DNA of 36,187 nucleotides from IMG/VR virus record IMGVR_UViG_3300020414_000984; one strand, given 5' to 3'. The stretch comes from an uncultured virus (IMG/VR IMGVR_UViG_3300020414_000984). Its lineage: Duplodnaviria > Heunggongvirae > Uroviricota > Caudoviricetes > Crassvirales. The position numbers were made by a program, and so were the translations under genes. A model generated the notes under the pieces. It was not told the DNA's origin, made no database searches, and was given only the letters and a program-made list of their open reading frames with translations. Below are positions 1,477 to 18,175 of this stretch, in pieces; position 1 is the first letter of the stretch; each line of letters starts with the position of its first letter.

Positions 1477-1971
1477 ATGGGATATTTTGAAAACATAAAC
1501 AAAAACGATTTAAATCTTTTAACCGATGGGGAGGTAAGATATGTAAATGGAGCATATACATTAGTTCCTTGGATGGAAGGGTTGGATGATGCCATATATC
1601 AAGGGTGTATTGATGATTTATTAAAAATGAATTGGGCACATTACAAATTATATTTAGTTGGTGGTCTTTTACAAGGTTGGAAAACAACTGATATAGATAT
1701 TTGTATAACTGGTGAAATTGATGAAAACTTACCAATTTTAATGAAAGCAGCAATGGAGTTAGGCCCATTTGATATGTATTATGTAAAGTCTTTAGACGAT
1801 ATAAAAGGATCAGGCAATAGAATATGGGAATTTGCAAAACCAGACTGTAAAGCACATGAAGGAGCACAAAGATGGCATGGCCAATGGAAATCTGATGGTA
1901 TGTTCTGGATGACTGAAAAATTTGATCCTAAGGGCAGAACTTACGATAAAGAACCTTTAGCATTAAATTAA
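1477..1971 (+). CDS. Small nucleotidyltransferase-like protein (Pol-beta superfamily), paralog 1
   Basis: YKLYLVGGLLQGWKTTDIDICITG matches hGG-x8-DhD; a candidate third acidic residue lies in GPFDMYYV. Confidence 0.65.
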   Translation: MGYFENINKNDLNLLTDGEVRYVNGAYTLVPWMEGLDDAIYQGCIDDLLKMNWAHYKLYLVGGLLQGWKTTDIDICITGEIDENLPILMKAAMELGPFDMYYVKSLDDIKGSGNRIWEFAKPDCKAHEGAQRWHGQWKSDGMFWMTEKFDPKGRTYDKEPLALN

Positions 1972-1990
1972 TAAAGTAAAAATTACGTAA

Positions 1991-2004
1991 AATACGTAAT
2001 GATA
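1991..2004 (+). promoter_or_regulatory. Putative late-promoter motif, copy 1 (AATACGTAATGATA)
   Basis: Intergenic; matches the AAYAMGTRATRATA copies at 11449 and 18182. Confidence 0.4.
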
Positions 2005-2037
2005 TAAACATAGTAATAATAATTAAAATTAAATTTT

Positions 2038-2304
2038 ATGGCAAAGAAAACAGACGATTTAAAAATCACAGACGAAGAATTAAAACTAATTCAAGAAAAA
2101 GTACAACAAATCAATAATTTGCAAATGCAAGTTGGAGGATTAGAAGTACAAAAAGCTACTGCTATTGCAATGGTTGGACAAGCCCAGGCAGAGCTAGGTA
2201 AAACTCAAGAAATGCTGGAAGAGAAATATGGTAAGGTTTCAGTTAATTTAACTGATGGTACTATAAAAGAGATTGAAGAAGATGAGCCTAATAAGGAAGA
2301 TTAG
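2038..2304 (+). CDS. Small coiled-coil protein, possibly an assembly chaperone
   Basis: 88 aa, helical heptad-like pattern, LEEKYGKVSVNLTDG end; A/T-rich leader. Confidence 0.6.
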   Translation: MAKKTDDLKITDEELKLIQEKVQQINNLQMQVGGLEVQKATAIAMVGQAQAELGKTQEMLEEKYGKVSVNLTDGTIKEIEEDEPNKED

Positions 2305-2500
2305 TATTGGTAGAGATTATAAAAACGATGCAATGCATTACGCTGTCGGCCAAGAAGTATATGGCGGGCATACCATATGCGATATAATTGAACAAGAAAG
2401 TAAATTTTCTATATTAATTAAAAAAGGTAAAGATGTTTTACCTTGGAAAGATTTTAATAAGAATATGGCGGTTTCTGTTGAATATAATTTAGAATATTAA
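2282..2500 (+). CDS. Hypothetical phage protein (MSLIRKISIG...)
   Basis: ATG at 2282 is in frame with the track ORF; its stop overlaps the next start (TAATG). Confidence 0.7.
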   Translation: MSLIRKISIGRDYKNDAMHYAVGQEVYGGHTICDIIEQESKFSILIKKGKDVLPWKDFNKNMAVSVEYNLEY

Positions 2501-3090
2501 TGCAAAGTTTATTTAACTTTATAGTCGAACCAAAAAATAAAAGATACGATAATACAAAACATATTGATGATAAAGAGCTGATATTAAATTCAGAAATATC
2601 TGATCATCGATATGTTAGTCGTGTCGGTAAAGTACTTAGCGTACCTAAAGCTATCAAAACAAAAATTAATGTAGGTGACGAAGTTATAGTACACCACAAT
2701 GTTTTTCGTAGATGGTACGACATTAGGGGCGTAGAGAAGAATAGCAAAAGCTATTGGAAAGAAAATAAATATTTTGTTGCTACAGACCAAATATTTCTGT
2801 ATAAAAGAAATAATGAATGGCATGCACCAGAAGGTTATTCTTTTATAAAACCAATTATATCAAATAATATATTGCAAAATGAAAAAGAGATTCCATTGCG
2901 TGGAATTATAAAGTATGTTGACCCAAAACTAAAAGATATACAAAAAGAAGATTTAATTGGATTTACACCGGAAAGCGAATATGAATTTGTTGTTGACGGT
3001 GAAAGATTATATAGAGTGCCAAATAATTCAATATCTATTAAGTATGAACGTCAAGGAAACGAAAAAGAATATAATCCAAGCTGGACATAA
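2500..3090 (+). CDS. GroES-like co-chaperonin
   Basis: FIVEP...G.VLSVP....I.VGDEVIVHHNVF pattern resembles the GroES fold, with a second similar half (IKPI...GIIKY...EDLIGF). Confidence 0.65.
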   Translation: MQSLFNFIVEPKNKRYDNTKHIDDKELILNSEISDHRYVSRVGKVLSVPKAIKTKINVGDEVIVHHNVFRRWYDIRGVEKNSKSYWKENKYFVATDQIFLYKRNNEWHAPEGYSFIKPIISNNILQNEKEIPLRGIIKYVDPKLKDIQKEDLIGFTPESEYEFVVDGERLYRVPNNSISIKYERQGNEKEYNPSWT

Positions 3091-3319
3091 AGCAGTTGAA
3101 GAATTAATTAAAGTTGCTAAAGAAAGAATTGTTGATTCAGATGATGATGTTTCAGCAGATAGATTAAAAAACGCGGCTGCTACAAAAAAGCTAGCTATAT
3201 TTGATGCTTTTGAAATACTTAATCGTATTGAAGAAGAAAAAAATATGTTAGAAGATAAACCTAAAGAAGTTAAAAAAGAAAAAACTTTTAGAGGGTTTGC
3301 AGAAGGGAGATCCAAATAA
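3044..3319 (+). CDS. Helical protein upstream of terL, candidate small terminase subunit
   Basis: Likely start is the ATG at 3044 (MNVKETKKNIIQAG); stop overlaps the terL ATG; assignment is positional only. Confidence 0.5.
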   Translation: MNVKETKKNIIQAGHKAVEELIKVAKERIVDSDDDVSADRLKNAAATKKLAIFDAFEILNRIEEEKNMLEDKPKEVKKEKTFRGFAEGRSK

Positions 3320-5535
3320 TGTATAAGCAATCATTATATAGCGTTATAGAGCCTATAAAAATTAATACAATTAAAAGGCTTAATAAAGCAAAAAAGTGGA
3401 AATACGGCTATAATAAAGAGCACGACGTAGTTGTTATAAGCAAGTCCGGTCAGATCGGGGAGGTGTATAGCATACAAAACTTAAAAATAGCTTTACCTAA
3501 ACAAAAAAATATACATAAGTTTGAAGATAACAAATGGAATAGATTTGAATATCCAAAAGCTTTAGAAAAAATAAAAACTGTTTTTGATTTTAAACAGTAC
3601 CCTCAAGATTTTAAAGAAAAATGGTATGATTACATCGATAATGAATTCACTCGTAGAGAAGAAGGTTTTTGGTTTTATAACAAAGGCATTCCTACTTACA
3701 TTAGTGGTACTCATTACATGTACTTGCAGTGGTCTAAAATTGACGTCGGGAATCCCGAATTCAGAGAGTCAAATAGATTATTCTTTATTTTCTGGGAAGC
3801 TTGTAAGGCAGATTCACGATCCTATGGGATGTGTTACCTTAAGAACAGGCGTTCCGGGTTTTCTTTCATGGCCTCAGGAGAGGTGGTTAACTTGGCAACC
3901 ATATCAAGTGACAGTAGGTATGGTATATTATCCAAGTCCGGTCCTGATGCAAAGAAGATGTTCACAGATAAGGTGGTACCCATATCAGTTAATTATCCCT
4001 TCTTTTTCAAGCCGACCCAGGACGGAATGGACCGTCCAAAGACCGAACTTGCCTACCGTGTCCCCGCAACCAAGTACACCCGTCGTAAGCTCACCGCCTC
4101 CGCCGATGAAACCTTACAGGACGAATTACAGGGACTTGATACCACCATCGATTGGAAGAACACCGGTGATAACTCCTACGACGGTGAGAAACTCAAACTC
4201 CTCGTACATGACGAGTCCGGTAAATGGGAGAAGCCGAACAACATCCTCAACAACTGGCGGGTCACCAAGACCACGTTACGATTAGGTAGTAGAATTATTG
4301 GTAAATGTATGATGGGTTCAACTAGTAACTCATTAGATAAAGGTGGTAGAAACTTTAAAAAACTATACGATGACTCAGATGTTACCAAGAGAAACAGCAA
4401 CGGACAGACTCGTTCAGGATTATATAGTTTGTTCATACCTATGGAATGGAACTACGAAGGATACATTGATTCTTATGGATTACCTGTATTCGATACACCG
4501 AAAAAATCGATTAAAGGACCTCAAAATGAGAAAATAAATTTAGGGGTTATTGAATATTGGGAAAATGAAGTTGAAGGATTAAAAGATGATCAAGACGCTT
4601 TAAATGAATTTTACAGACAATTTCCAAGAACAACAAAACATGCTTTTAGAGATGAATCAAAACAATCTTTATTTAATCTAACTAAAATTTATGAACAAAT
4701 AGATTTTAATGAAGATTTAAAAAATTCTATAGAAGTAACAAAAGGTAATTTTCAATGGGAAAATAGTGAAAAAGATACTAAAGTAATATTTGTACCTAAC
4801 AATAATGGTAGGTTTCTTGTTACTTGGGTTCCTCCTGTTTCACTACAAAATAAAAGATTTATTAAAAACGGAGTTAATTATCCTGGTAATGAACATATGG
4901 GAGCTTTTGGATGCGATCCTTATGATATATCAGGAACTGTAGATAAAAGAGGTTCTAATGGATCTTTGCATGGATTAACAAAGTTTAGCATGGAAAATGC
5001 ACCGCCAAATCATTTTTTCTTAGAATATATAGCTAGACCACAAACAGCTGAAATATTTTTTGAAGATGTTTTAATGGCTTGTGTTTTTTACGGTATGCCT
5101 ATATTAGCAGAAAACAATAAACCAAGATTACTATATTATTTTAAACGTAGAGGTTATAGAGGTTTTGCTATGAATAGACCTGATAAACTAAGAAATAAAT
5201 TATCAGTTACTGAAAGAGAAATAGGTGGTATACCAAATTCAAGCGAAGATATAAAACAAGCTCATGCTTCTGCCATAGAAACTTACATAGAACATTTTGT
5301 AGGTTTAAAAGAAACTGGATACGGTGACATGTATTTTCAGAGAACACTAGAAGACTGGGCAAAATTTAACATAAACAATAGAACAACACATGATGCTTCT
5401 ATTAGCTCTGGTCTAGCTTTAATGGCTTGCAATAAACATAGATATAAACCTAATGTTAAAAGAATATTAAAACCAGTAGATTTAGGTATAAAAAAATATA
5501 ATAATAAAGGATCAATGTCAAAAATAATTGAATAG
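3319..5535 (+). CDS. terL: Terminase large subunit
   Basis: 738 aa; Walker A-like YLKNRRSGFS, Walker B LLVHDESGKW, MMGST coupling motif, nuclease acidic motifs FGCDPYD and HDASISSGLA; lies directly before the portal gene. Confidence 0.93.
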   Translation: MYKQSLYSVIEPIKINTIKRLNKAKKWKYGYNKEHDVVVISKSGQIGEVYSIQNLKIALPKQKNIHKFEDNKWNRFEYPKALEKIKTVFDFKQYPQDFKEKWYDYIDNEFTRREEGFWFYNKGIPTYISGTHYMYLQWSKIDVGNPEFRESNRLFFIFWEACKADSRSYGMCYLKNRRSGFSFMASGEVVNLATISSDSRYGILSKSGPDAKKMFTDKVVPISVNYPFFFKPTQDGMDRPKTELAYRVPATKYTRRKLTASADETLQDELQGLDTTIDWKNTGDNSYDGEKLKLLVHDESGKWEKPNNILNNWRVTKTTLRLGSRIIGKCMMGSTSNSLDKGGRNFKKLYDDSDVTKRNSNGQTRSGLYSLFIPMEWNYEGYIDSYGLPVFDTPKKSIKGPQNEKINLGVIEYWENEVEGLKDDQDALNEFYRQFPRTTKHAFRDESKQSLFNLTKIYEQIDFNEDLKNSIEVTKGNFQWENSEKDTKVIFVPNNNGRFLVTWVPPVSLQNKRFIKNGVNYPGNEHMGAFGCDPYDISGTVDKRGSNGSLHGLTKFSMENAPPNHFFLEYIARPQTAEIFFEDVLMACVFYGMPILAENNKPRLLYYFKRRGYRGFAMNRPDKLRNKLSVTEREIGGIPNSSEDIKQAHASAIETYIEHFVGLKETGYGDMYFQRTLEDWAKFNINNRTTHDASISSGLALMACNKHRYKPNVKRILKPVDLGIKKYNNKGSMSKIIE
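3641..4285 (+). CDS. Candidate overprinted ORF in the +1 frame of terL (Pro/Ser/Thr-rich)
   Basis: Stop-free from 3584 to 4285 with ATGs at 3626 and 3641; coincides with a GC-rich island that ends at its TAG. Confidence 0.4.
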   Translation: MNSLVEKKVFGFITKAFLLTLVVLITCTCSGLKLTSGIPNSESQIDYSLFSGKLVRQIHDPMGCVTLRTGVPGFLSWPQERWLTWQPYQVTVGMVYYPSPVLMQRRCSQIRWYPYQLIIPSFSSRPRTEWTVQRPNLPTVSPQPSTPVVSSPPPPMKPYRTNYRDLIPPSIGRTPVITPTTVRNSNSSYMTSPVNGRSRTTSSTTGGSPRPRYD

Positions 5536-7926
5536 ATGAATATATATAGTGACACTAATAGTCCTTTTCCAAGTCAAGTTGTAAGTGATGCGGAAAAAGC
5601 TAGTCTTGAATATGGCAAGCAAGTTGCACAAGCTATAGAGCAAGAGTGGTTTAATCAAGGAAGAACTAGTGGTAATAGATACTTAACTAACTGGAATAAT
5701 TTTCATCAGTTAAGAACATATGCTAGAGGAGAGCAATCAATACAAAAATATAAAGATGAATTAGCGATTAACGGTGATTTGTCTTATCTTAATTTAGACT
5801 GGAAACCAGTTCCTATATTATCTAAGTTTGTAGATATAGTAGTAAATGGTATATCTTCAAAAACATATGATATAAAAGCTTATGCACAAGATCCTGAGTC
5901 TATAAAGAAAAGAACTAACTATGCTTCTAAAATATATGAAGACATGGTTGCTAGTGAGTATTTAGATAAATTAAGTCAAACATTAGGATTAGATTTATAT
6001 CAGTCTCCATTAAAAGATATAATTCCAGAAACATCAGATGAATTAGAGCTTCACATGCAGCTTTCATACAAACAAAGTGTAGAAATAGCAGAAGAAGAAG
6101 CAATATCTACTGTATTAGCTCAAAACAAATATGACCTAATAAGACGTAGATTGAATATGGATTTAGTTACTTGTGGTATAGCAGCTGCAAAAACTAGTTT
6201 TAACACAGCTAATGGCGTTACTGTAGATTATGTTGATCCTGCTTATATGGTTTATTCTTACACAGAAGATCCAAACTTTGAAGATATATACTATGTAGGT
6301 GAATTAAAATCTATTTCATTATCAGAATTAAAAAAAGAATTTCCACATATAACAGATAAAGAACTAGAAAGAATACAAGCAATGCCAGGTAATAGATCTT
6401 ATATTACAGGGTGGGGTGATTATGATGTTAATACTGTTCAGGTTTTGTATTTTGATTATAAAACTTATCACAATCAAGTTTTTAAAATAAAACAAACAGA
6501 TCAAGGTTTAATGAAAGCTATTGAAAAACCTGACACATTTAATCCACCTGAAAATGAAATGTTTGAAAGAGTTTCAAGATCTATTGAAGTTTTATATAGT
6601 GGCGCGAAAGTATTAGGTACAGATACCATGTTAAAATGGGAGTTAGCAGAAAACATGTCAAGACCTTATGCTGACACTACTAAAGTTAAAATGAATTATG
6701 CTATTTGTGCACCACGTATGTATAAAGGTAGAATAGAATCTATAGTTAGTAAATGTACTGGTTTTGCAGATATGATTCAACTAACTCATCTAAAACTACA
6801 GCAAGTTATATCTCGTATGGTACCAGATGGTGTTTATTTAGATATGGACGGTCTTGCTGAAGTTGATTTAGGTAATGGTACTAATTATAATCCAGCTGAA
6901 GCATTGAATATGTATTTCCAAACTGGTAGTATTGTAGGTAGATCACTAACTCAAGAAGGTGATATGAACGCGGGTAAAGTGCCTATACAAGAATTACAGT
7001 CTGGAAGTGGTAATGCTAAAATATCTAGTCTTATACAGACTTATCAATACTATTTACAAATGATAAGAGACGTGACCGGACTAAACGAAGCTAGAGATGG
7101 TAGTTTACCAGACCGTAACACACTTGTAGGATTACAGAAACTAGCCGCTAATGCATCAAATGTAGCAACTAGACATATTGTACAGTCTAGTTTGTTTTTG
7201 ACTCTTAAATTAGCAGAAAATATTAGCTTAAAAATAGCTGATGCTTTAGAGTTTCCTTTAACAAAATCATCGTTACAAAACTCTATTTCTACCTACAATG
7301 TTAAAACTTTGAAAGAAGTTGTTAATCTTAATTTACATGACTTTGGTATTTTCTTAGAATTAGAACCAGATGAGGAAGAAAAACAACAATTAGAAGCAAA
7401 TATACAAATAGCTTTGCAAGCTAAAAATATTGATGTTGAAGATGCTATAGATTTAAGACAAATTAAAAATCTTAAACTAGCAAATCAAATGCTTAAAGTT
7501 AAACGTAAACAAAAAGCAAAACAAGATCAAGCTAATCAACAAGCGAATATACAAGCACAAGCTCAAGCTCAAGCACAGACAGCAGAAAAAACAGCTATGG
7601 CTGAAGTACAAAAACAACAAGCTATATCTGGTGCTAATGTAGAGTATGAAAAAGCTAAAAGTGAGTTTGAAAAAGATCGTATGCAGTTACAAGCTCAGTT
7701 AGATCAGCAAAAAATGATGCAACAACATAAAAATGATATGGAACTTGCTAAATTACAAGAGCAAGGAACAACATCAAGAGAACAACAAAGAGAAAAAGCC
7801 AAGGATAAAAGAATAAAAATGGAGGGTACTCAACAAAGTAAAATGATTTCTCAAAGAAAAAACGATAGTAATCCAATAAACTTTGAATTAGAAGGTAAAC
7901 AAACCATGGGTGTTCCTAATCCTTAA
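5536..7926 (+). CDS. Portal protein
   Basis: 796 aa between terL and scaffold; motifs LDWKPVPILSKFVDIVVNG and RDVTGLNEARDG; long Q/K/E coiled-coil C-terminus. Confidence 0.88.
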   Translation: MNIYSDTNSPFPSQVVSDAEKASLEYGKQVAQAIEQEWFNQGRTSGNRYLTNWNNFHQLRTYARGEQSIQKYKDELAINGDLSYLNLDWKPVPILSKFVDIVVNGISSKTYDIKAYAQDPESIKKRTNYASKIYEDMVASEYLDKLSQTLGLDLYQSPLKDIIPETSDELELHMQLSYKQSVEIAEEEAISTVLAQNKYDLIRRRLNMDLVTCGIAAAKTSFNTANGVTVDYVDPAYMVYSYTEDPNFEDIYYVGELKSISLSELKKEFPHITDKELERIQAMPGNRSYITGWGDYDVNTVQVLYFDYKTYHNQVFKIKQTDQGLMKAIEKPDTFNPPENEMFERVSRSIEVLYSGAKVLGTDTMLKWELAENMSRPYADTTKVKMNYAICAPRMYKGRIESIVSKCTGFADMIQLTHLKLQQVISRMVPDGVYLDMDGLAEVDLGNGTNYNPAEALNMYFQTGSIVGRSLTQEGDMNAGKVPIQELQSGSGNAKISSLIQTYQYYLQMIRDVTGLNEARDGSLPDRNTLVGLQKLAANASNVATRHIVQSSLFLTLKLAENISLKIADALEFPLTKSSLQNSISTYNVKTLKEVVNLNLHDFGIFLELEPDEEEKQQLEANIQIALQAKNIDVEDAIDLRQIKNLKLANQMLKVKRKQKAKQDQANQQANIQAQAQAQAQTAEKTAMAEVQKQQAISGANVEYEKAKSEFEKDRMQLQAQLDQQKMMQQHKNDMELAKLQEQGTTSREQQREKAKDKRIKMEGTQQSKMISQRKNDSNPINFELEGKQTMGVPNP

Positions 7927-7953
7927 TCATTAATTATTTAATTATATTATATT

Positions 7954-9159
7954 ATGTCAGAAGAAGTAAAAACAAATGAACCTGTTAAACAGGAAGGTGA
8001 CTTTAAAATAAAAAGTAAACCTAAAAAACCAAAACAATTAGGTAATAAAGAACAAGAAATACCAAAGGTTAATATTAAAGAACCTTTAGTAGAAGTTGAA
8101 CCTGCTGTTAAAAAGGTTGAAATTAAAAAAGAAGACGATGCCATTCAAATCGGAGAAACAAAGGAGATACCTGTGGGCGAACCATCCGGAGATAGCGCAA
8201 AGGTGGGAGAACCTGTACAAAAGTCCGACGAGACTACTGAAGGGTTTTCTCCGATCCAAGAAGTAACTGAAGAAGAAGTTAAAAAAGTTGAAGCTGAAGT
8301 TAAAGAAGCTGTAAGAGACGAACAAGTATTAGGTAAACAATTACCTGAAAATGTAGAAAAACTTGTTAACTTCATGGAAGAAACCGGTGGAACTGTAGAA
8401 GATTACGTTAGATTAAATGCTGACTACAGTAATGTTGATGAAACAGCATTGTTAAAAGAATATTACAAAAAAAATAAACCTCATTTAGATTCAGACGATA
8501 TTAATCTTATATTAGAAGATTATACATGGGACGAAGATATACATGAAGAAAAAGAAATACGCAGGAAAAAACTTGCGTTTAAAGAAGAAGTTGCAAAAGC
8601 CAAAAACTATTTGGAAGACTTGAAACAAAAATATTACGACGAGATCAAGTTGAGACCGGGTGTTACTCAAGAACAACAAAAAGCAATGGACTTTTTCAAC
8701 CGATACAATAAGGAGCAAGCAAAAGCTGAGCAATTACACGAAGAGTTTAAACGTAAAACTAACAACCTTTTCAATGAAGATTTCAAAGGTTTTGATATTA
8801 AAGTTGGAGATAAAAGATATAAGTATAACGTTCAGAATCGTGAAAAAATTGCAGAAAACCAGTCAAACATTAATAATCTCATAGGGAAGTTCCTAGATGG
8901 AGATGGTAATGTGGTAGACCCAGCTGGTTATCATAAAGCAATGTATGCTGCTGAAAACGTAGATAAAATCGCTGCTCATTTTTACGAACAAGGTAAAGCC
9001 GACGCTGTAAAAGACGTCGTAAATAAATCTAAAAATCTTTCTGATGTAAAAGCAAGAGAAGGTAATAAAGGTGATATTTACATAGGTGGCTTGAAAGTAA
9101 AAGCGATTAGTGGTGCTGATTCTACAAAATTGAAAATTAAAACAAGAAAATTTAACTAA
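7954..9159 (+). CDS. Capsid scaffolding protein
   Basis: Acidic, low-complexity N-terminus and helical C-terminus; lies between portal and major capsid genes. Confidence 0.7.
   Translation: MSEEVKTNEPVKQEGDFKIKSKPKKPKQLGNKEQEIPKVNIKEPLVEVEPAVKKVEIKKEDDAIQIGETKEIPVGEPSGDSAKVGEPVQKSDETTEGFSPIQEVTEEEVKKVEAEVKEAVRDEQVLGKQLPENVEKLVNFMEETGGTVEDYVRLNADYSNVDETALLKEYYKKNKPHLDSDDINLILEDYTWDEDIHEEKEIRRKKLAFKEEVAKAKNYLEDLKQKYYDEIKLRPGVTQEQQKAMDFFNRYNKEQAKAEQLHEEFKRKTNNLFNEDFKGFDIKVGDKRYKYNVQNREKIAENQSNINNLIGKFLDGDGNVVDPAGYHKAMYAAENVDKIAAHFYEQGKADAVKDVVNKSKNLSDVKAREGNKGDIYIGGLKVKAISGADSTKLKIKTRKFN
8138..8266 (+). CDS. Overprinted 42-aa basic protein MPFKSEKQRRYLWANHPEIAQRWENLYKSPTRLLKGFLRSKK
   Basis: ATG-to-TAA ORF in the +1 frame of the scaffold gene that spans a GC-richer patch; resembles small phage proteins starting MPFKS.KQRR..WA..PEIA..W (from recollection). 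Confidence 0.7.
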   Translation: MPFKSEKQRRYLWANHPEIAQRWENLYKSPTRLLKGFLRSKK

Positions 9160-9175
9160 TTAAAAATTACAAATT

Positions 9176-10621
9176 ATGAGTTTATCTCCACAATTTGGGT
9201 CAATCATACCTTCATCAAAACAAGAGTTGTTGAATGAAAACTACTTGAAGTTTAACGATGGAACTAGTGATTTTGCCCAGCAATATTTACCAGAGGTCTA
9301 CGAACAAGAAGTAGAGCGTTATGGAAACAGAACGTTATCTGGATTTTTAAGAATGGTCGGTGCAGAAATGCCTATGACCTCTGATCAAGTAATCTGGTCT
9401 GAACAAAATAGATTACACATTGCTTATGACAAATGTACTTATGCAGGTGGTGCTCCAACAATATTGGTTATTCCAGTTGGTGGTACTGAACCAGCAGGTA
9501 CTTTAGTAGAAAATGTAATCTCTATTAACGACACTGTTGTTATTATGGATACAGTTACTGGTGTTGAAGGAAAAGCTATTGTAACTGCAAGAGCTGCTAA
9601 CAGTATTACTGTTCAGTTCTTTGACAATGCTGCTGCAACGCTTACGTCTAAAGGCTTTGTTTCTGGACAAATCAAAGTATTTGTTTATGGTTCTGCTTAT
9701 AGTAAAGGAAGAAATACAGATGGTACTGGAGCTGATGCTGAAAGAATATCTGTTGAGCCTTCTTTCAGACAATTTTCTAACTCACCAATCATTATTAGAA
9801 GCCAATACGTAGTTAATGGTTCTGATATGGCGCAAATCGGTTGGGTTGAAGTTGCTACTGAAGATGGTGCTTCTGGATACTTATGGTATTTAAAAGCTGA
9901 GTCTGAAACAAGATTAAGATTTGAAGACTACTTAGAAATGGCTATGGTAGAAGGTGAATTAAATGCTGCTGCAGGTAATGCTGATTACCAAGCAGGTAAA
10001 TTACCTGGAACACAAGGTTTATTTGCTGCTATCGAAGATAGAGGTAATGTACAAGTAGGATTCACTGCTGCTGCAGGTCTTGATGATTTTGATGCTATTC
10101 TTAAAAACTTAGATACTCAAGGTGCTATTGAAGAAAACATGCTTTTCTTACAAAGACAAACTGCTTTAGATTTTGATGATATGTTAGCTAATATTTCTGG
10201 CGGATTTGCTGGTGGTGTTGCTTTCGGTTTATTTGAAAACTCTGAAGAAATGGCACTTAACTTAGGTTTTTCTGGATTTAGAAGAGGTTCTTATGACTTT
10301 TACAAAACTGATTGGAAATACTTAAATGACGCTTCTACAAGAGGTGCTATTTCTGGTATCAATTCAATCGAAGGTGTATTAGTACCTGCTGGAACTTCTA
10401 CAGTTTATGATCAAATCTTAGGTACTAACATTAGAAGACCTTTCTTACACGTAAGATATAGAGCTTCTCAAGCTGACGATAGAAGAATGAAGTCTTGGAT
10501 TACTGGTTCTGCTGGTGGTGCGTTTACTTCAACTCTTGATGCAATGCAAGTAAACTTCTTATCTGAAAGATGTTTAGTTACTCAAGCTGCTAACAACTTT
10601 GTATTATTCAAAGGAGTATAG
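9176..10621 (+). CDS. Major capsid protein
   Basis: 481 aa after the scaffold; strongly biased codons (GCT/GGT/TCT); followed by a stable hairpin; motifs QQYLPEVYEQEVERYG and GFRRGSYDFYKTDWKYLND. Confidence 0.88.
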   Translation: MSLSPQFGSIIPSSKQELLNENYLKFNDGTSDFAQQYLPEVYEQEVERYGNRTLSGFLRMVGAEMPMTSDQVIWSEQNRLHIAYDKCTYAGGAPTILVIPVGGTEPAGTLVENVISINDTVVIMDTVTGVEGKAIVTARAANSITVQFFDNAAATLTSKGFVSGQIKVFVYGSAYSKGRNTDGTGADAERISVEPSFRQFSNSPIIIRSQYVVNGSDMAQIGWVEVATEDGASGYLWYLKAESETRLRFEDYLEMAMVEGELNAAAGNADYQAGKLPGTQGLFAAIEDRGNVQVGFTAAAGLDDFDAILKNLDTQGAIEENMLFLQRQTALDFDDMLANISGGFAGGVAFGLFENSEEMALNLGFSGFRRGSYDFYKTDWKYLNDASTRGAISGINSIEGVLVPAGTSTVYDQILGTNIRRPFLHVRYRASQADDRRMKSWITGSAGGAFTSTLDAMQVNFLSERCLVTQAANNFVLFKGV

Positions 10622-11450: not shown

Positions 11451-11462
11451 CAAGTGATAATA
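11449..11462 (+). promoter_or_regulatory. Putative late-promoter motif, copy 2 (AACAAGTGATAATA)
   Basis: Same consensus as the copies at 1991 and 18182; precedes the tail genes. Confidence 0.4.
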
Positions 11463-11494: not shown

Positions 11495-11511
11495 TAATTA
11501 AAAAGAATATA

Positions 11512-12273: not shown

Positions 12274-13505
12274 TGGCATTAGTAACTGAAACAAATCAAC
12301 AATATTACGCTGGAGCTCAACCTTTCAGAGGCGATGCAGGAAATACTGCTAATCAAAAATTCACTACTACCTTTAATACAGATTTAGTTTTTGGTAGTCA
12401 TGATCCAAACAATGCTGATTATATTAAAAATAATTTTAAAATATATACTAGCACACAAGGAATACCAGGAACATGGAGTGAATACACGGCTGCTTACACA
12501 GTTTCTAATAATGTAATTACTATAACAGGAACTCCAGGAGCTAATATATATATAGTTGTACAATTAAAATCGCTAGACGGTGGTAAATATGGTAATACTA
12601 ACCCTGAAAAAGCTTTTGGTGATGCTGTAGAAGAAAATTATGGTAGTTATTCTTATATAAAATTAGGTGATATAATAGATAACTTTATGGTAGGTTATGT
12701 AGGTGATGGTAAAGTAATACAAACATGTAAAAAATCTGATGTTGTGTTTTTTGCTAAAAGATCTTTACAAGAATTTAGCTATGATACTTTAAAAAGTATA
12801 AAATCTCAAGAATTAACAATACCTGATAGTTTATCTTTAGTGATACCTCAAGACTATGTAAACTATGTAAGTTTTGACTGGATAGATAGTTTAGGTGTAA
12901 AACATCCTATTTATCCTGCTAATAATTTAACTACTGATCCTTACAGCACTCCATTACAAGATGATGATGGTATACCTACTCAAGATAATTTAGGTGAAAA
13001 CTTAGAAGGTACTTCTCAAACAATTGAACGATGGGGAGATGCTAACACTAAATTATTAAATGGTCAATGGTATAGAGATTATGATTACTATGGTTTTGCT
13101 AATCCAGATTTATATAGTTTAAACGGTCCTTGGAATTGGGGTAGATTATACGGTATTGATCCAAAACTAGCTCAATCTAATGGTTGGTTTGGAATAGACG
13201 AAAGAGATGGAAAATTTACATTTTCAAGTAATTTAAGAGATAAATTAATAGTAGTAGAATATGTATCTGATGGTTTAGCTTATGATTTAGATAGTAGAGT
13301 GCCTAAATTAGTTGAAGACGCGATGTACAAAAGTATACTTTACAATATAGTTTCAGTAAGAGCTAATCAACCAGAAGGCATAGTTCAAAGATACAAAAAA
13401 GATAGATACGCAGCTTTGCGTAATGCTAAAATAAGATTATCTAATATAAAACTTGACGAGTTTATTCAAGTAATGAGAGGTAAATCTAAATGGATTAAAC
13501 ACTAA
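12273..13505 (+). CDS. Second tail ring / tubular protein
   Basis: 410 aa, translationally coupled (TAATG); motifs IPQDYVNYV and ALRNAKIRLSN. Confidence 0.6.
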   Translation: MALVTETNQQYYAGAQPFRGDAGNTANQKFTTTFNTDLVFGSHDPNNADYIKNNFKIYTSTQGIPGTWSEYTAAYTVSNNVITITGTPGANIYIVVQLKSLDGGKYGNTNPEKAFGDAVEENYGSYSYIKLGDIIDNFMVGYVGDGKVIQTCKKSDVVFFAKRSLQEFSYDTLKSIKSQELTIPDSLSLVIPQDYVNYVSFDWIDSLGVKHPIYPANNLTTDPYSTPLQDDDGIPTQDNLGENLEGTSQTIERWGDANTKLLNGQWYRDYDYYGFANPDLYSLNGPWNWGRLYGIDPKLAQSNGWFGIDERDGKFTFSSNLRDKLIVVEYVSDGLAYDLDSRVPKLVEDAMYKSILYNIVSVRANQPEGIVQRYKKDRYAALRNAKIRLSNIKLDEFIQVMRGKSKWIKH

Positions 13506-13511
13506 AATTTA

Positions 13512-16500
13512 ATGGCACAAAGTATTAATACTTTTTTAAAAGGTAAACTTAATAAAGACCTAGATGCTCGTTTGTTACCAAACGGAGAGTATAGAGATGC
13601 TAAAAATATACAAGTAAGTAAATCTGAAGGTCCAAATGTTGGATCGTTAGAAAACGTGCTGGGTAATGAACTTGCGTTAAATTTTAAAACACTTACAGGT
13701 GTTAGCAATTTAAGATGTATTGGTTACTTAACAAGTGAAGTAGACGAGTGCATATTTTTATTTTTAACAGATTATGATGATCCTAAACCTCAGTTTTTAA
13801 CATATTATAATCAAGCAAACAACTTTATAATAAAATATAAAGTAGGAACTAGCGTTAGCACTTCAAGTTCTACAATTTTAGTACAAGGTGCTTTTTTAAA
13901 TTTTTCACAATCACACCCTATTTACGGTGTTAATTTACTAGAGACTTTACTATTTTTTACAGATAATAGAAATCAACCTAGAGTTATAAATGTACAAAAA
14001 GCTGAAGAAATAGGTGTTAATCATTATACTACTGAAGATCAAATAAGTGTAGCTAAATATAATCCTTATAATCCTATATATTTATGGGATAAAAACGCAG
14101 GTTCAAGTGCGTCTGTTCCTTTTGAAACAACTATGAAAGATGTTACTTCAAAGTTTATGCCAAATGGTGGATCTGCTTTTTGTAGAGGAGCTCATAGTGG
14201 AGGGACTAGTATAGATATTGATAATATAAAAGGTGATATTTTACAAGCTGGTCTAGGTGTAACAAACCCTTATCAAGCTTTAGGCGCTACAGTATCTTAT
14301 ATTAATAATAACGGTGAAATAGTTAGCACAGGAACTACGGTAAACACTTATAATTCAGCAACAGGTGTGTTAACAACGGTTGCAAGTGTAGCTGCATTAG
14401 GCGATAACACAGAGTTAGTATTTAATGCTAATCCTTTTTATGATAAAAATTTTGCTGGTGATGAGGATTATTTAGAAGATAAATTTGTTAGATTTAGTTA
14501 TAGATTTAAATTTGAAGATGGTGAATATTCTTTAATGGCTCCGTTTACTCAAGCTGCTTTTATACCTAAACAAGACGGGTATTTCATGTATGTTAAGCAT
14601 GATAACACAGGTACATATCCTATTCCTACAAAAGATGATCAAACAGATTCATTTAGAAGTACTGTTGTTTCTTTTATGGAAAACAAAACAGATGAAATAA
14701 CTTTAAAAGTTCCATTACCTTTTGCAGCAAATACTTTAGAGTCTAGTTTAAAAGTTACAGAATTAGAATTACTTTATAAAGAGTCTGATGGATTGGCAGT
14801 TAAAGTTATAGATACAGTTACTATAAGTGAAATAGCAACCGCTAGTGTAGGTAAAGATTATTATGATTACAAATATTTATCTAAAAAACCTTTTAAAACT
14901 TTACCAGATGATGAAATAATAAGAGTTTTTGATCAAACTCCTGTTAGAGCATTGTCACAAGAAATATCAGGTAACAGAGTTATTTATGGTAATTTCCAAA
15001 ACAAGCACACTCCTTTAGAATCAATTGATTACAATGTAGCTGCTAGTCCTAAAGATGATTTTGATTTAAAAACTGGAACAGCAACTGGAGCAGCAGGTAA
15101 TTACAATGCTAATGCCACTGTTAATATTTCAAGTGTTACAGGTACTATACAAATAGGTAGTATTGTAACTGGTCCTTCTGGATCAACTATACCTGCTAAT
15201 ACTCAAGTTACAGGAGGTAATTTTTCAAGTACAGTTACTTTTAATAAAGCTATTGTTTTAACTGCTTTAGGTGGTTCTGCTTTAGTTTTTAATCCAATTG
15301 GACCAGACACTCAAAATGTTACTAAAGTAGAATATCCTAATTCTTCTTTAAAACAAAATAGAAATTATCAAGTAGGTGTTGTGCTATCAGATAGATATGG
15401 TAGACAATCTAGTGTTATATTATCAAACAATGATACGATAAGCGCTGTTGGTGGTTCTTCTTTTGTTGGAGATACAATATATTCTGCTTATAACACTGAA
15501 GGAGTTCAACAGGAAAATTGGCCTGGTGATAGTTTAAAGGTTTTATTTAATCAACCTTTAGCACCTAGCTCTAAAAACATGGTTACAAAATGGCCTGGAC
15601 TTTACAATGGAGATACTACAGATAAAAATTATAATCCATTAGGTTGGTATTCATATAAAATAGTAGTTAAACAAACAGAACAAGAATATTACAATGTTTA
15701 TTTACCAGGTATTATGGCTTCATATCCTGAAGATCAAACACTAGAACTTGGTGGAACTTCTTTTGTTAGTTTAATAAATGATAATATTAATAAAGTTCCA
15801 AGAGATTTAACCGAGCTTGGTCCTGAACAAAGACAATTTAGAAGTTCTGTTCAATTATTTGGTAGAGTTGAAAACACGTCTACAGCTGTAACATATAGCG
15901 GTGTAGATATACAAAATATAGGACTAACCAACACACCTTATTATCCAGGTAAATCAAGTGATACTGTTTCTACAGTTTCTACTATAGATGACTTATTTGC
16001 TTATAATGCTAGTAATCCACCTAGACCTAACTATTTTCCACAGTTTTATGCTTTAGATTCAAATCCTTTAATAGCTAAGATAAGTACAGAAGCTCAAATA
16101 GGTCAAATAGCTACAACTAATTTTGATACAGCTAGCGCGCTTACAAATGCAGCGGTTAATGACGCTAGTTCTTTTGTTTTAAAAAATGTAATAGGAAATA
16201 TAACTCCAGGTGATTTTGTTAGCGGTATAGGTGTTCCTGAAGGTGTTTTTGTAACAGCTTTTAATTCAGGTACTAGCACGGTTCAAATAGTAGATTCTTC
16301 TAATAATCCGTATAATATTACGCTTCCGGTAGATGCGGTTTTATTTTTTAGTCCAGGATTTGCGAATCCTAACTTAGGTAATTTAAAAAGACCAGGTGTG
16401 CAGTATTTAGCGGTTTATGAAACAGAAGCTGTAGATTCATTGTTAGATATATTCTGGGAAACAACTAGTGCTGGTTTAATTAGTGATTTAAATAATTTAA

Positions 16501-17768
16501 TTATTAATTCAGCAGAAGGTGCTGCTGGTTTAAGCAGCTTTAACACATCACCATGGGACGAATTTACTGGTGGTATGAATTTTGCAGCTGAAGATATACT
16601 ACAGTCTGACTTTACTTTAGTTGATAGCTTTGGCGTTGATATACCTAATTCAGATATTGATAGTGTTACTCTTGAATCAGCTGTAGATGCAAATGGTGTG
16701 GATAGACAATTAGCTTCAAATGGTGGACCTTATTTTACACTTACAAATCCAAATCCAGGTGATTTTAATATACAAATAACACAAAATTACTGGAACAATG
16801 TATTTTTTGGTGATAATGCTAATGTTAGGCTTTTTACTTTTAAAATAAACACTACAACAAGTGTTAATGGTAATATATCTAGTAACAGCTTTTTTGAAAG
16901 CGCTGGTCCAGATAACATGCCTCCTCAAAGAGGTACTCAAATAAGTCCAGGTACTGCTGGAACAGAATCACCCACATCTGGTTCTACAGTATACACTAAT
17001 AGAACTATAACTACTACTCAAGCCACTTGTGATTTTGTTAATGGAGCTGCTAATGTAAATTTAAGAACAAATGACTTAGATATAAGTCTAGCTGCTGTAG
17101 ATAGTGATGGAACAGATGTAACAAGCAATAATTATTTTAGTCTAAATACAGCTATAGTAACTGGAACTTTAGTTAAAAATATTCAAGCAACAGTAGCTAT
17201 ACAAAACAGCTCTATGCCTATTGATATTTATACCTTAACAGTAACAGGTACTGATTCTGGTATATCTCCAGTAGCTAACTATGTTGTTAATATTGATGTA
17301 AGAGAAAATGTTTCTTACGCTGAGCAAGTGTTTAGATGTGTTACCGGCGAATATGATTGTGGTGGTTATAGTGTACTTGTAATGGCTGTAAGTACTAGTG
17401 GTATTAGTAACAATAGAGGTTGGTATGCTTATGTAGGTGCTATAAATTCTTTAGCAGACGGAACAAATGTTACTCTTGATAAAACAAATGCTTACACGTC
17501 AGCTCAATCAGCTTATGGTAGTTATGCTGGAAACTTTTTCTTTTTCCAACAAAATACGCCAGATCAAACAGGTTTAAATACTTTACTAGGTTATGTTAGT
17601 GGTAGTTTAGATGATTATTGGCTTGGTAATATTGATGGAGCTGGAACTCCAGGTTGGTGTTACAATTATGGAACAGGATCTAATCCTTCGCCTTGTGGTT
17701 GTGATGGTCTTGGTTGTAATGATCCTTTTTTAGTTAGTGTAAGTAATTACAATTTTGAAATAGTGTAA
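13512..17768 (+). CDS. Large tail stabilisation / nozzle-type protein with inserted domains and a Cys-rich C-terminus
   Basis: Starts FLKGKLNKDLDARLLPNGEYRDAKNI; contains LLFFTDNRNQPRVIN, KFVRFSYRFKFEDGEYS and YQVGVVLSDRYGR, which resemble tail stabilisation proteins of Bacteroidota podoviruses. Confidence 0.7.
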   Translation: MAQSINTFLKGKLNKDLDARLLPNGEYRDAKNIQVSKSEGPNVGSLENVLGNELALNFKTLTGVSNLRCIGYLTSEVDECIFLFLTDYDDPKPQFLTYYNQANNFIIKYKVGTSVSTSSSTILVQGAFLNFSQSHPIYGVNLLETLLFFTDNRNQPRVINVQKAEEIGVNHYTTEDQISVAKYNPYNPIYLWDKNAGSSASVPFETTMKDVTSKFMPNGGSAFCRGAHSGGTSIDIDNIKGDILQAGLGVTNPYQALGATVSYINNNGEIVSTGTTVNTYNSATGVLTTVASVAALGDNTELVFNANPFYDKNFAGDEDYLEDKFVRFSYRFKFEDGEYSLMAPFTQAAFIPKQDGYFMYVKHDNTGTYPIPTKDDQTDSFRSTVVSFMENKTDEITLKVPLPFAANTLESSLKVTELELLYKESDGLAVKVIDTVTISEIATASVGKDYYDYKYLSKKPFKTLPDDEIIRVFDQTPVRALSQEISGNRVIYGNFQNKHTPLESIDYNVAASPKDDFDLKTGTATGAAGNYNANATVNISSVTGTIQIGSIVTGPSGSTIPANTQVTGGNFSSTVTFNKAIVLTALGGSALVFNPIGPDTQNVTKVEYPNSSLKQNRNYQVGVVLSDRYGRQSSVILSNNDTISAVGGSSFVGDTIYSAYNTEGVQQENWPGDSLKVLFNQPLAPSSKNMVTKWPGLYNGDTTDKNYNPLGWYSYKIVVKQTEQEYYNVYLPGIMASYPEDQTLELGGTSFVSLINDNINKVPRDLTELGPEQRQFRSSVQLFGRVENTSTAVTYSGVDIQNIGLTNTPYYPGKSSDTVSTVSTIDDLFAYNASNPPRPNYFPQFYALDSNPLIAKISTEAQIGQIATTNFDTASALTNAAVNDASSFVLKNVIGNITPGDFVSGIGVPEGVFVTAFNSGTSTVQIVDSSNNPYNITLPVDAVLFFSPGFANPNLGNLKRPGVQYLAVYETEAVDSLLDIFWETTSAGLISDLNNLIINSAEGAAGLSSFNTSPWDEFTGGMNFAAEDILQSDFTLVDSFGVDIPNSDIDSVTLESAVDANGVDRQLASNGGPYFTLTNPNPGDFNIQITQNYWNNVFFGDNANVRLFTFKINTTTSVNGNISSNSFFESAGPDNMPPQRGTQISPGTAGTESPTSGSTVYTNRTITTTQATCDFVNGAANVNLRTNDLDISLAAVDSDGTDVTSNNYFSLNTAIVTGTLVKNIQATVAIQNSSMPIDIYTLTVTGTDSGISPVANYVVNIDVRENVSYAEQVFRCVTGEYDCGGYSVLVMAVSTSGISNNRGWYAYVGAINSLADGTNVTLDKTNAYTSAQSAYGSYAGNFFFFQQNTPDQTGLNTLLGYVSGSLDDYWLGNIDGAGTPGWCYNYGTGSNPSPCGCDGLGCNDPFLVSVSNYNFEIV

Positions 17769-18175
17769 TGATAAGCGCTGATAAAATAGAAGAAGTAATT
17801 GTTAAAATACATAATCAAAATTGGAAAGGATATAAACTTTATTTTATAGGAGGTGTTTTAAATAATAAAGAAACAAAAGATATAGATATTTTTATAACAG
17901 GATCAGGTGATGAAGAAGAGTTAGTAAAGTCAATAAAAAATGTTCAAGAAAGAGGTTTAGTGGATTTTTTTGTAGTAGATTATATAGATGAAAAAGAACC
18001 TAATACTTATTATTTAAAAAGATTTGCTAAAACATATCCTAAATACCCACATGATTTTAAAAAAGAGCACGCTCTATATTGGAGAAATTTTATAAATAAG
18101 GATTGTAAGTGTGGTAAAAAAACAAAAAGAAATTATACACAAAAGCCAGTATTAATATATAATGGCGTAATTTAG
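17768..18175 (+). CDS. Small nucleotidyltransferase-like protein, paralog 2
   Basis: YKLYFIGGVLNNKETKDIDIFITG; candidate third Asp in GLVDFFVV; start coupled to the upstream stop (TAATG). Confidence 0.6.
   Translation: MISADKIEEVIVKIHNQNWKGYKLYFIGGVLNNKETKDIDIFITGSGDEEELVKSIKNVQERGLVDFFVVDYIDEKEPNTYYLKRFAKTYPKYPHDFKKEHALYWRNFINKDCKCGKKTKRNYTQKPVLIYNGVI

What the first reader, a model, noticed from the sequence alone, without database searches (positions are those of the whole stretch)
1477..18175. Two paralogous minimal nucleotidyltransferases, each placed directly behind a tail gene
ORFs 1477-1971 and 17768-18175 share W..YKLY[LF][VI]GG-x8-DIDI.ITG, a later G..D[MF][YF][YV]V, FAK, [FY]W and a terminal Y..[EK]P[LV] motif. 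This matches the catalytic signature of Pol-beta-superfamily NTases (GG as in the CCA/poly(A) polymerase head), without body domains. Each follows the C-terminal end of a tail gene (1-nt gap; TAATG overlap) and precedes the same promoter-like motif. The repeated layout suggests a tail-tip + NTase cassette that travels as a unit. Candidate roles are nucleotidylation or maturation of the cognate tail tip, or a counter-defence or RNA-repair function. I know of no described system like this.
Basis: partly seen in the sequence, partly recalled or inferred. Interest (0 to 1): 0.8.

Follow-up and report, generated by a model that had tools for sequence, protein, structure and literature searches.

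The report
Small nucleotidyltransferases riding phage tail-tip cassettes
A marine phage carries two distantly related copies of a tiny enzyme-like protein (nucleotidyltransferase fold), each placed right behind a tail gene; one copy changes in step with the tail fibre's receptor-binding knob, a pairing not found in print that may point to a new way of finishing phage tails.

Summary
ORFs 1477-1971 (164 aa) and 17768-18175 (135 aa) are paralogs (BLASTP E 4e-13). Both belong to a small, apparently phage-only family. Its members keep the Pol-beta nucleotidyltransferase signature: G-[GSA]-x8-DxD invariant in 35 of 35, and a third Asp in 31 of 35. A confident model's best fold matches are minimal nucleotidyltransferases.

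The window is a marine phage with a crAss-like/Pervagoviridae-like structural module. The upstream genes are a tail fibre ending in a jelly-roll knob and the N-terminal half of a split muzzle protein.

At the fibre site the gene behaves as part of the host-range cassette. Its sequence co-varies with the fibre's last 200 aa (rho 0.88) but not with the downstream genes (rho 0.16). It occurs almost only behind this knob type. A distant phage lineage also keeps it directly behind a large tail-module protein.

It is not obligatory or exclusive, though. It is absent from 17 of 22 muzzle junctions. In four contigs it sits beside ribonucleotide reductase, and in another lineage it sits in the head module on the opposite strand. 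The shared downstream motif belongs to the next gene.

Function is untested. My best reading is a tail-tip companion enzyme or cap (0.42). The main rival is a passenger counter-defence enzyme.

The parts
3..1475 (+). C-terminal 490 aa of a long tail-fibre gene (1874 aa in the identical contig L003). The last ~136 aa (about 1065-1472) form a jelly-roll, C1q/TNF-like knob.
   Evidence: PHROG tail fibre hits. Full length seen in L003. A knob HMM matches residues 355-490 at E 1.4e-62. AF2 model has pLDDT 75.5 overall and above 80 in the knob. VIA gives Z 8.9 to 8gtc_S and 8.8 to the phage 1358 RBP 4l92, also PRD1 P5. Foldseek gives 2.6e-4 to lambda gpJ.
1477..1971 (+). NT1 (P0001, 164 aa), a minimal Pol-beta-fold nucleotidyltransferase-like protein. 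It has an N-terminal beta-hairpin extension (residues 1-35). Key residues: G62-G63 (1660-1665), D72 (1690-1692), D74 (1696-1698), D99 (1771-1773), K121.
1982..2000 (+). Perfect 8-bp inverted repeat ATTACGTA-AAA-TACGTAAT just after the NT1 stop. It is also present in related spacers, including one locus without the gene (L110).
   Evidence: Read from the sequence. Related spacers are shown.
2012..2023 (+). AGTAATAATAAT motif upstream of ORF 2038-2304.
13512..17768 (+). N-terminal 'muzzle' gene (1418 aa). Residues 1-648 align to residues 1-405 of the single-gene muzzle-like protein gp097 of Cellulophaga phage phi38:1. The C-terminal part is variable and ends ...SNYNFEIV.
17768..18175 (+). NT2 (P0002, 135 aa), a paralog of NT1 without the N-terminal extension. 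Key residues: G28-G29, D38 (17879-17881), D40 (17885-17887), D66 (17963-17965), K88.
18186..18197 (+). AGTAATAATAAT motif 2 nt upstream of the ATG at 18200. A similar (A)GT[AG]ATAAT-like string is visible at this position in 21 of the 22 related junctions printed, whether or not they carry NT2 (my reading of the printout).
18200..19690 (+). C-terminal 'muzzle' gene (496 aa, PF25729 crAss_MUZ_C). Residues 53-395 align to residues 875-1198 of phi38:1 gp097.

Best explanation
NT1 and NT2 are catalytically competent-looking minimal Pol-beta-fold nucleotidyltransferases. They are made late, translationally coupled to receptor-binding tail proteins, and belong to the phage's exchangeable tail-tip (host-range) modules.

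The most likely role is as a companion of the distal tail domain. This could be an enzyme that nucleotidylates (for example AMPylates) the tail protein or something bound to it during assembly. It could also be a nucleotide-binding assembly factor or transient cap for the knob.

Shown here: the fold and motif, conservation of the catalytic residues, the tight junctions, co-variation and co-occurrence with the fibre knob, and conserved placement behind a large structural-module protein in a second phage lineage.

Inferred only: that the protein touches or modifies the tail protein, the kind of nucleotide, and the target residue.
For: 1. Enzyme-like family.
- G62, D72, D74 and G79 are invariant in 35 of 35 members. 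D99 is present in 31 of 35 and W53 in 33 of 35.
- 14 of 35 members hit Pfam NTP_transf_2 at E below 0.1. One tandem member passes the curated cut-off, 26.7 against 21 bits.
- The best PDB profile hit is the minimal NTase 1ylq, E 0.0014.
- The AF2 model has pLDDT 89.5. Its six best VIA matches are minimal NTases or an aminoglycoside adenylyltransferase, Z 5.6-6.3.

2. Coupling to the tail genes. Across all loci the gap to the upstream gene is 1 nt (20 loci), 3 nt (15) or 12 nt (9) at the fibre site and -1 nt in 11 of 11 at the muzzle site. It is -1, -4, -10, +1 or +2 in the distant lineage.

3. Co-variation at the fibre site. Over 19 unique loci, NT identity tracks the identity of the fibre's last 200 aa (Mantel Spearman 0.88; 0 of 2000 permutations as high). 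It does not track the three downstream genes (0.16; p 0.09).

4. Co-occurrence with the knob. Of 51 unique fibre-end/slot combinations, 18 were NT with a knob-type end, 1 NT without, 29 no NT with another end type, and 3 knob-type without NT. Other fibre ends carry other slot genes instead: DUF7936, a 300-aa family and others.

5. One complete genome (G002) has its only NT copy next to RNR but still encodes a knob-type fibre.

6. A distant lineage (NT about 30% identical). In 20 of 27 metagenome loci the gene lies in a same-strand structural-gene array. In the 12 of these where the upstream ORF is complete it directly follows a 704-1035-aa protein, one of which has an SprB adhesin repeat. That protein's tail role is inferred from position only.
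Against: - At the muzzle junction the gene is present in only 5 of 22 loci. Five loci lacking it have the same type of muzzle C-terminus, so it is dispensable there.
- The muzzle-C tree needs at least 3 gains or losses.
- Four contigs carry the gene directly upstream of RNR. A third lineage has it on the opposite strand between portal-side and capsid genes.
- G011 (97% complete) and G037 have a divergent knob but no NT.
- L011 combines an NT about 90% identical to that of L006/L007/L009 with a fibre end only about 42% identical. The pairing is therefore not allele-specific.
- Co-variation of adjacent genes can arise from shared descent of a recombination block without any functional tie.
- The fibre knob and the muzzle C-terminus are not detectably homologous.
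- No known tail-fibre chaperone has this fold (recalled). No paper linking the two was found.
Confidence: 0.42

Rival explanations
1. Passenger counter-defence enzyme. This would be a stand-alone MNT-like nucleotidyltransferase that acts in the host cytoplasm, for instance by AMPylating and silencing host HEPN-type RNase toxins or another defence protein. It could be delivered with the virion. It would sit in tail modules only because these are the phage's hypervariable, frequently exchanged regions.
For: - The best fold matches are MNT antitoxins and minimal NTases: 8xeh_E Z 6.3, 1no5_B 6.1, 1wot 5.7, 1ylq 5.7.
- The best PDB sequence hit is 1ylq.
- Distribution is sporadic: 7 of 36 long records, 5 of 22 muzzle junctions and 2 of 77 assessable RNR junctions.
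- The gene uses several alternative insertion slots, and gains or losses are needed on the muzzle tree.
Against: - No HEPN or other partner gene lies nearby (Pfam scan of 25 window ORFs).
- Placement is in late structural operons with start codons overlapping tail-gene stops, which is poor timing unless the protein is packaged.
- Association with one fibre-knob family is strong, and one genome keeps that association with the gene elsewhere.
- Placement is conserved in a second lineage.
- The motif is GG-x8-DxD, whereas MNTs have GS-x10-DxD (recalled).
- The C-terminal half, beta-rich with conserved FAK, DR and W, is not MNT-like.
Confidence: 0.25
2. Selfish or neutral mobile ORF. This would be a small gene that spreads between intergenic junctions of conserved phage genes, in the manner of free-standing homing endonuclease genes, without serving the tail.
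For: - Presence/absence polymorphism has precise boundaries: the gene lies between the upstream stop codon and the conserved upstream motif of the next gene.
- Three different slots are used in related phages, including next to RNR.
- Only the window carries two copies, whereas each of the 10 long NT-positive records has one.
Against: - There is no nuclease motif or family hit.
- Catalytic NTase residues are under strong conservation.
- The copies are old. NT1 and NT2 are 33% identical, and the slot labels cluster on the NT tree, needing 6 changes, the minimum possible. There is no sign of recent transposition.
- No flanking repeats were noticed at the two junctions read; no repeat search was run.
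Confidence: 0.1
3. RNA or nucleotide-metabolism enzyme unrelated to tails. This would be a head-only relative of class II CCA-adding enzymes or poly(A) polymerases that tails or repairs an RNA, or converts a nucleotide.
For: - The GG motif gives weak matches to poly(A) polymerase and CCA-adding heads: 4wby, 1vfg, 6ibp at E about 0.2-0.3.
- VIA aligns 3h37 at 25% identity, Z 4.4.
- PHROG 'tRNA nucleotidyltransferase' hits at E 0.016.
- Four contigs place the gene beside RNR.
Against: - There are no neck or body domains to hold an RNA, since the proteins are only 135-164 aa.
- No tRNA genes are found in the window.
- Most copies lie in structural modules.
Confidence: 0.08

Closest known systems
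Minimal nucleotidyltransferases (MNT) of HEPN-MNT type VII toxin-antitoxin pairs, such as HI0073, AF0614 (1ylq) and 8xeh
   Same: Similar size (about 100-160 aa), the same alpha/beta NTase core, a G-[GS]...DxD motif plus a third carboxylate, and the best structural and profile matches.
   Different: No HEPN partner gene. Spacing is GG-x8-DxD. The family has an extra conserved beta-rich C-terminal half and, in NT1-type members, an N-terminal hairpin. It is encoded in phage tail modules. Neither window protein reaches the Pfam gathering cut-off: NT1 has no hit and NT2 scores 20.1 against 21 bits.
Tail-fibre plus cognate chaperone or 'cap' cassettes, such as Alteromonas phages V22/A5 (PMC10579305, abstract read) and lambda Stf-Tfa or T4 gp37-gp38 (recalled)
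   Same: A small gene lies immediately downstream of the fibre gene, is tightly coupled to it, is exchanged together with the fibre's C-terminal receptor-binding domain, and co-varies with it.
   Different: The fold is an NTase with conserved catalytic residues, not a known chaperone fold. The pairing is not allele-specific (L011). The gene can sit elsewhere in the genome. Binding has not been shown.
Head domain of class II CCA-adding enzymes and bacterial poly(A) polymerases
   Same: The hVGG...DxDh motif and weak profile and fold matches.
   Different: The neck, body and tail domains needed for RNA binding are absent.
Protein-AMPylating NTase-fold enzymes such as MNT, GlnE and DrrA (recalled)
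   Same: They provide a precedent that this fold can nucleotidylate Tyr, Ser or Thr residues of proteins.
   Different: No sequence relationship beyond the superfamily, and no target is known here.

Membership tests
Pol-beta-like nucleotidyltransferase superfamily (Pfam clan of NTP_transf_2, PF01909) | hG[GS] motif followed by [DE]h[DE]h on the next strand | tested here: met
   G62 is invariant with G/S/A at position 63. D72 and D74 are invariant in 35 of 35 members. The spacing is 8 residues, slightly shorter than the usual 9-13 (range recalled).
Pol-beta-like nucleotidyltransferase superfamily (Pfam clan of NTP_transf_2, PF01909) | Third carboxylate on an adjacent strand | tested here: met
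   D99 (D66 in NT2) is present in 31 of 35 members. It is replaced by S or Q in P0040, P0049, P0053 and P0058.
Pol-beta-like nucleotidyltransferase superfamily (Pfam clan of NTP_transf_2, PF01909) | alpha-beta-alpha-beta-alpha-beta core fold | tested here: met
   The AF2 model has pLDDT 89.5 with the expected order of elements. The top six VIA matches are NTases at Z 5.6-6.3, which is modest. Foldseek against the PDB found no match with E at or below 0.001.
Pol-beta-like nucleotidyltransferase superfamily (Pfam clan of NTP_transf_2, PF01909) | Score above the Pfam gathering cut-off | tested here: not met
   NT1 has no hit. NT2 scores 20.1 bits against a cut-off of 21. A tandem family member, P0039, passes at 26.7 bits. 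14 of 35 members hit at E below 0.1.
MNT antitoxin of HEPN-MNT systems | Adjacent HEPN toxin gene | tested here: not met
   The neighbours are tail genes, and no HEPN family appears among 25 window ORFs. The same neighbours are seen in related loci.
MNT antitoxin of HEPN-MNT systems | AMPylation of a HEPN tyrosine | not testable with these tools
   This needs biochemistry.
Class II CCA-adding enzyme / poly(A) polymerase | Neck and body domains following the head | tested here: not met
   The proteins are 135-164 aa. One longer relative turned up, the 310-aa P0063, which has a different, weakly WecG-like C-terminal part.
Tail-fibre assembly chaperone or cap (functional class) | Encoded directly downstream of the fibre gene and exchanged with its C-terminal domain | tested here: met
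Tail-fibre assembly chaperone or cap (functional class) | Physical binding to the fibre tip, or a requirement for fibre folding | not testable with these tools
   This needs co-expression and pull-down experiments.
Free-standing homing endonuclease | A nuclease domain (GIY-YIG, HNH, LAGLIDADG and similar) | tested here: not met
   No such Pfam or PHROG hit, and the fold is an NTase.

The most novel reading that the evidence does not exclude
A phage-specific family of minimal nucleotidyltransferases is a dedicated maturation enzyme of receptor-binding tail tips. It would be co-translated with the fibre knob or muzzle protein and would covalently nucleotidylate it, or remain on it as a nucleotide-loaded cap. 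It would be swapped between phages together with the knob as a two-gene host-range cassette. This would be an enzyme-dependent post-translational step in phage adsorption organelles that none of the four literature searches run here turned up.
Probability: 0.18. Interest if true: 0.85.

Novelty: new variant of a known kind. Interest (0 to 1): 0.6.

Why it matters
Receptor-binding modules decide phage host range and are the parts that engineers swap. If a conserved enzyme travels with, and is needed for, one widespread marine knob type, host-range transplants would have to move two genes rather than one. Nucleotidylation would also join glycosylation as a covalent modification of phage tails.

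Even if the passenger reading is right, this is an uncharacterised, phage-restricted minimal nucleotidyltransferase family with intact catalytic residues. It has 46 cluster representatives among 1.84 billion and is a candidate counter-defence enzyme of abundant flavobacterial phages.

Tried and rejected
- Complex prediction of three copies of the fibre knob (residues 40-200 of A3) with NT1 gave no verdict: score 0.00 in two runs, and controls were not run. This is neither support nor evidence against binding.
- Megablast and tblastn of the window and both proteins against 50,697 GenBank phage records found nothing. No cultured phage in that collection carries the family.
- The window's own assembly is not held. 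The nearest record, G001 (6 kb), has no match.
- The search for related loci with the whole family alignment failed for lack of a conserved stretch. I used single proteins and a sub-alignment instead.
- Searches for fused forms gave little. NT1 'longer' returned one 310-aa protein from a 1.1-kb contig: an NT core plus a weak WecG-like region (E 6.9e-4, below cut-off). NT2 'longer' returned none. This is too thin to build on.
- Homology between the fibre knob and the muzzle C-terminus was not found, by BLASTP or by the knob HMM.
- Homology between the large upstream proteins of the distant lineage and the muzzle N protein gave only a 48%-probability match in a C-terminal insert. L244/L245 also matched the L044 muzzle C-terminus weakly by BLASTP, E 8e-6. 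I regard this as not established.
- I first read the fibre and NT as uncoupled, from whole-ORF identities (for example L004: NT 97%, fibre 50%). Restricting the comparison to the last 200 aa reversed that reading.
- Earlier-findings look-ups returned nothing.
- Four literature searches found no paper linking nucleotidyltransferases to tail fibres. The library lacks most subscription journals.
- The Atlas feature search gave only leads below 0.9. The best BFVD hit is an unnamed 192-aa viral protein, E 2.7e-4.
Full report
**What the window is.** The 36-kb window encodes, on the + strand, the following genes:
- the end of a tail-fibre gene (3-1475);
- a large terminase (3319-5535) and a portal (5536-7926);
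- virion structural proteins;
- a 1418-aa protein (13512-17768) and a 496-aa protein (18200-19690);
- a 3015-aa giant ORF;
- thioredoxin and an M15 endolysin;
- a ribonucleotide reductase large subunit on the - strand.

The 1418-aa and 496-aa proteins both match PHROG 14478. The 496-aa protein also carries the crAss muzzle C-terminal domain PF25729.

The nearest cultured relatives by tblastn are flavobacterial podophages: Cellulophaga phi38:1 (Pervagoviridae), Flavobacterium 'elemo' phages and Maribacter phage Panino. No GenBank phage record matches at the DNA level.

In phi38:1 one gene, gp097 (1324 aa), covers what the window splits in two. Residues 1-405 of gp097 align to the 1418-aa protein, and residues 875-1198 align to the 496-aa protein. 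The two window proteins are not paralogs of each other.

**The observation.** Both small ORFs are real and are paralogs, with 33% identity over 97 residues and E 4e-13. The junctions (a 1-nt gap and a TAATG overlap) are as described.

The shared 12-mer AGTAATAATAAT lies after both genes and nowhere else exactly. A similar string at the same position before the muzzle-C start codon is visible in 21 of the 22 related junctions printed, with or without the small gene (my reading of the printout). The 8-mer GTAATAAT is likewise found before the next gene at the fibre site in loci without the gene, 7 of 29, against 2 of 11 with it. The motif therefore belongs to the downstream genes.

**Fold and family.**
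- The family is small. There are 46 cluster representatives at E ≤ 1e-3 among 1.84 billion for NT1, and 14 clusters at 90% identity for NT2.
- In an alignment of 35 members, G62, D72, D74 and G79 are invariant. W53 is present in 33 of 35 and the third carboxylate D99 in 31 of 35.
- Pfam NTP_transf_2 is hit weakly. NT2 scores 20.1 bits against a cut-off of 21, and NT1 is not hit. 14 of 35 members hit at E < 0.1. A tandem member, P0039, passes at 26.7 bits.
- The family profile's best PDB hit is the archaeal minimal NTase 1ylq, E 0.0014, followed by poly(A) polymerase and CCA-enzyme heads at E about 0.2-0.3.
- The AF2 model of NT1 is confident, with pLDDT 89.5.
- Foldseek gave no PDB match with E at or below 0.001. 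An all-against-representatives structural search put six NTases on top, Z 5.6-6.3: MNT antitoxin 8xeh, HI0073, AAD(9), 1wot, 1ylq and 2rff.

I conclude that these are minimal Pol-beta-fold nucleotidyltransferases with an intact-looking active site. They also have a family-specific beta-rich C-terminal half and, in NT1-type members, an N-terminal hairpin.

**Where homologs sit.** Using 41 + 2 related viral loci, I found three slots in this phage clade.
- Slot A lies behind the tail-fibre gene array and before the conserved 88-aa/75-aa/196-aa/terminase block.
- Slot B lies between the two muzzle genes.
- Slot C lies directly upstream of the RNR large subunit.

The gene is present in only some loci at each slot.
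- Slot B holds the gene in 5 of 22 muzzle-C-centred loci. In the other 17 the two muzzle genes are still separate, with a short spacer. A tree of 22 distinct muzzle-C proteins needs at least three gains or losses.
- Slot C holds it in 2 of 77 assessable RNR-centred loci, plus two more contigs found through NT1.
- Slot A is a variable slot. It holds the NT gene, or a DUF7936 protein, or a 300-aa PHROG-26179 protein, or others.

Among 36 long records, 7 carry the family, one copy each. Three further long records also have one copy each. The window is the only sequence I saw with two copies.

On a tree of 41 NT proteins the slot labels cluster, needing 6 changes, the minimum possible. The copies are therefore old residents of their slots and not recent transpositions.

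**The link to the fibre tip.** Whole-ORF identities first suggested that the fibre and the NT were uncoupled. Restricting the comparison to the fibre's last 200 aa showed the opposite.

Over 19 unique loci, NT identity and fibre-end identity correlate at Spearman 0.88, with 0 of 2000 permutations as high. NT identity against the three downstream genes gives 0.16, p 0.09. L013 and L014 illustrate this: their NTs are 93% identical, their fibre ends 70% and their downstream genes 34%.

Presence follows the same line. Among 51 unique combinations the counts were as follows:
- NT with a window-like fibre end: 18;
- NT without such an end: 1 (L036, where another gene lies between the fibre and the NT);
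- no NT with another end type: 29;
- no NT with a window-like end: 3.

A knob HMM finds the domain at the C-terminus of every fibre that directly precedes an NT. It also finds the domain in L036, L041, L042 and L056, where a small collagen-like fibre protein lies in between. Finally it finds a divergent '...EYNIT' subtype that is followed by that small fibre protein and no NT (L106, L107, L110, G011, G037).

The knob is a jelly-roll of the C1q/TNF type, as in several phage receptor-binding heads.

In the complete genome G002 the only NT copy is in slot C, yet a knob-type fibre is present. G004, also slot C, is cut off just before the place where the knob would be.

There are exceptions.
- L011 pairs an NT about 90% identical to that of L006, L007 and L009 with a fibre end only about 42% identical.
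- G011 (97% complete) has a divergent knob and no NT.

**Slot B.** All eight NT-positive muzzle-N proteins end in an aromatic-x-[FVI]-[EVA]-[IV]-x strand, as do five NT-negative ones. Twelve NT-negative ones end differently. The muzzle end and the fibre knob show no detectable homology.

**Other lineages.** A sub-alignment of distant members retrieved 27 metagenome loci.

In 20 of them the NT lies in a same-strand array of structural genes. In the 12 where the upstream ORF is complete it directly follows a 704-1035-aa protein; in the other 8 that ORF is cut by the contig end or is short. The stop and start overlap or nearly touch. Nearby genes include a neck-type protein, a tape-measure-like protein and a head protein. 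The large protein itself has no tail annotation, so calling it a tail protein rests on position. One of these large proteins carries an SprB adhesin repeat.

The other seven loci belong to a different context. In five of them (L264-L267, L269) the gene lies on the opposite strand. In the one locus annotated (L267) its neighbours are a portal gene and capsid-side genes. L263 and L268 are too short to judge.

**Reading.** Three lines of evidence favour a functional tie to distal tail domains:
- conserved catalytic residues;
- translational coupling to tail genes;
- cassette-like co-variation and co-occurrence with one knob family, plus conserved placement in a second lineage.

This is why I rank 'tail-tip companion enzyme or cap' first, at 0.42.

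Physical linkage inside a recombination block can mimic much of this. The gene's facultative presence and its alternative slots fit a passenger enzyme, for example one that is MNT-like and aimed at host defence (0.25). A selfish ORF (0.10) and an RNA/nucleotide enzyme (0.08) are less likely.

Nothing here shows what the enzyme transfers or to what. I found no paper describing such a pairing. The closest described layout is the fibre-plus-chaperone 'cap' module of Alteromonas phages (PMC10579305, abstract read), whose chaperones, according to that abstract, resemble intramolecular chaperone domains and so are of a different kind.

**Verdict.** This is a real, uncharacterised, phage-restricted nucleotidyltransferase family. 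Its claims of exclusivity and of a linked promoter motif are not. I rate the novelty as a new variant of a known kind, and the interest at 0.6.

Noticed in passing
window 13512-19690; L050 (phi38:1) 6379-10353; L051 (Panino) 6403-10316: The muzzle-like tail protein is one gene in Cellulophaga phage phi38:1 (gp097, 1324 aa). In the window's clade it is two genes, whether or not the small NT gene lies between them. In Maribacter phage Panino the C-terminal part continues in another frame, which looks like a frameshift or a second kind of split.
   Followed up: partly
slot between the fibre gene and the 88-aa ORF in L079-L152 (window equivalent 1476-2037): This slot holds alternative genes that each go with a particular fibre C-terminus. 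DUF7936 proteins (107-123 aa) follow coiled-coil fibre ends. A 300-aa PHROG-26179 family follows fibres ending ...QPG..HPRS. A family with a conserved ~94-aa N-terminal domain, often with collagen-like repeats (118-501 aa), follows knob-type fibres.
   Followed up: partly
window 21488-30535: A 3015-aa ORF has no Pfam or PHROG hit at E ≤ 0.001. By its position it may be the giant virion or cargo protein (RNA polymerase-like) of crAss-like phages, but this was not tested.
   Followed up: no
window 1982-2000: A perfect 8-bp inverted repeat, ATTACGTA-AAA-TACGTAAT, lies right after the NT1 stop. It is conserved in related spacers, including one locus without NT (L110). It could be a terminator or a regulatory hairpin.
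   Followed up: no
proteins P0039, P0046, P0063, P0016 (from public collections): Unusual family architectures were seen. Two are tandem NT-NT proteins (384-391 aa). One has an NT core fused to a weakly WecG/TagA-like region (310 aa, 1.1-kb contig). One has a fibre-repeat-like N-terminus joined to the C-terminal half of an NT2-type protein (224 aa). All come from short contigs and may be assembly or frameshift artefacts.
   Followed up: partly
L246 1524-4628: The large tail protein preceding the NT gene in a distant metagenomic phage lineage carries an SprB repeat (PF13573, E 9.6e-11), a domain of Bacteroidota gliding-motility adhesins. This fits a Bacteroidota host and an adhesin role.
   Followed up: no
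window 2500-3090: The 196-aa ORF just before the terminase matches PHROG 13932, annotated 'co-chaperonin GroES' (E 8.7e-21). It is highly conserved, with 491 related stretches in IMG/VR. It has no Pfam hit.
   Followed up: no
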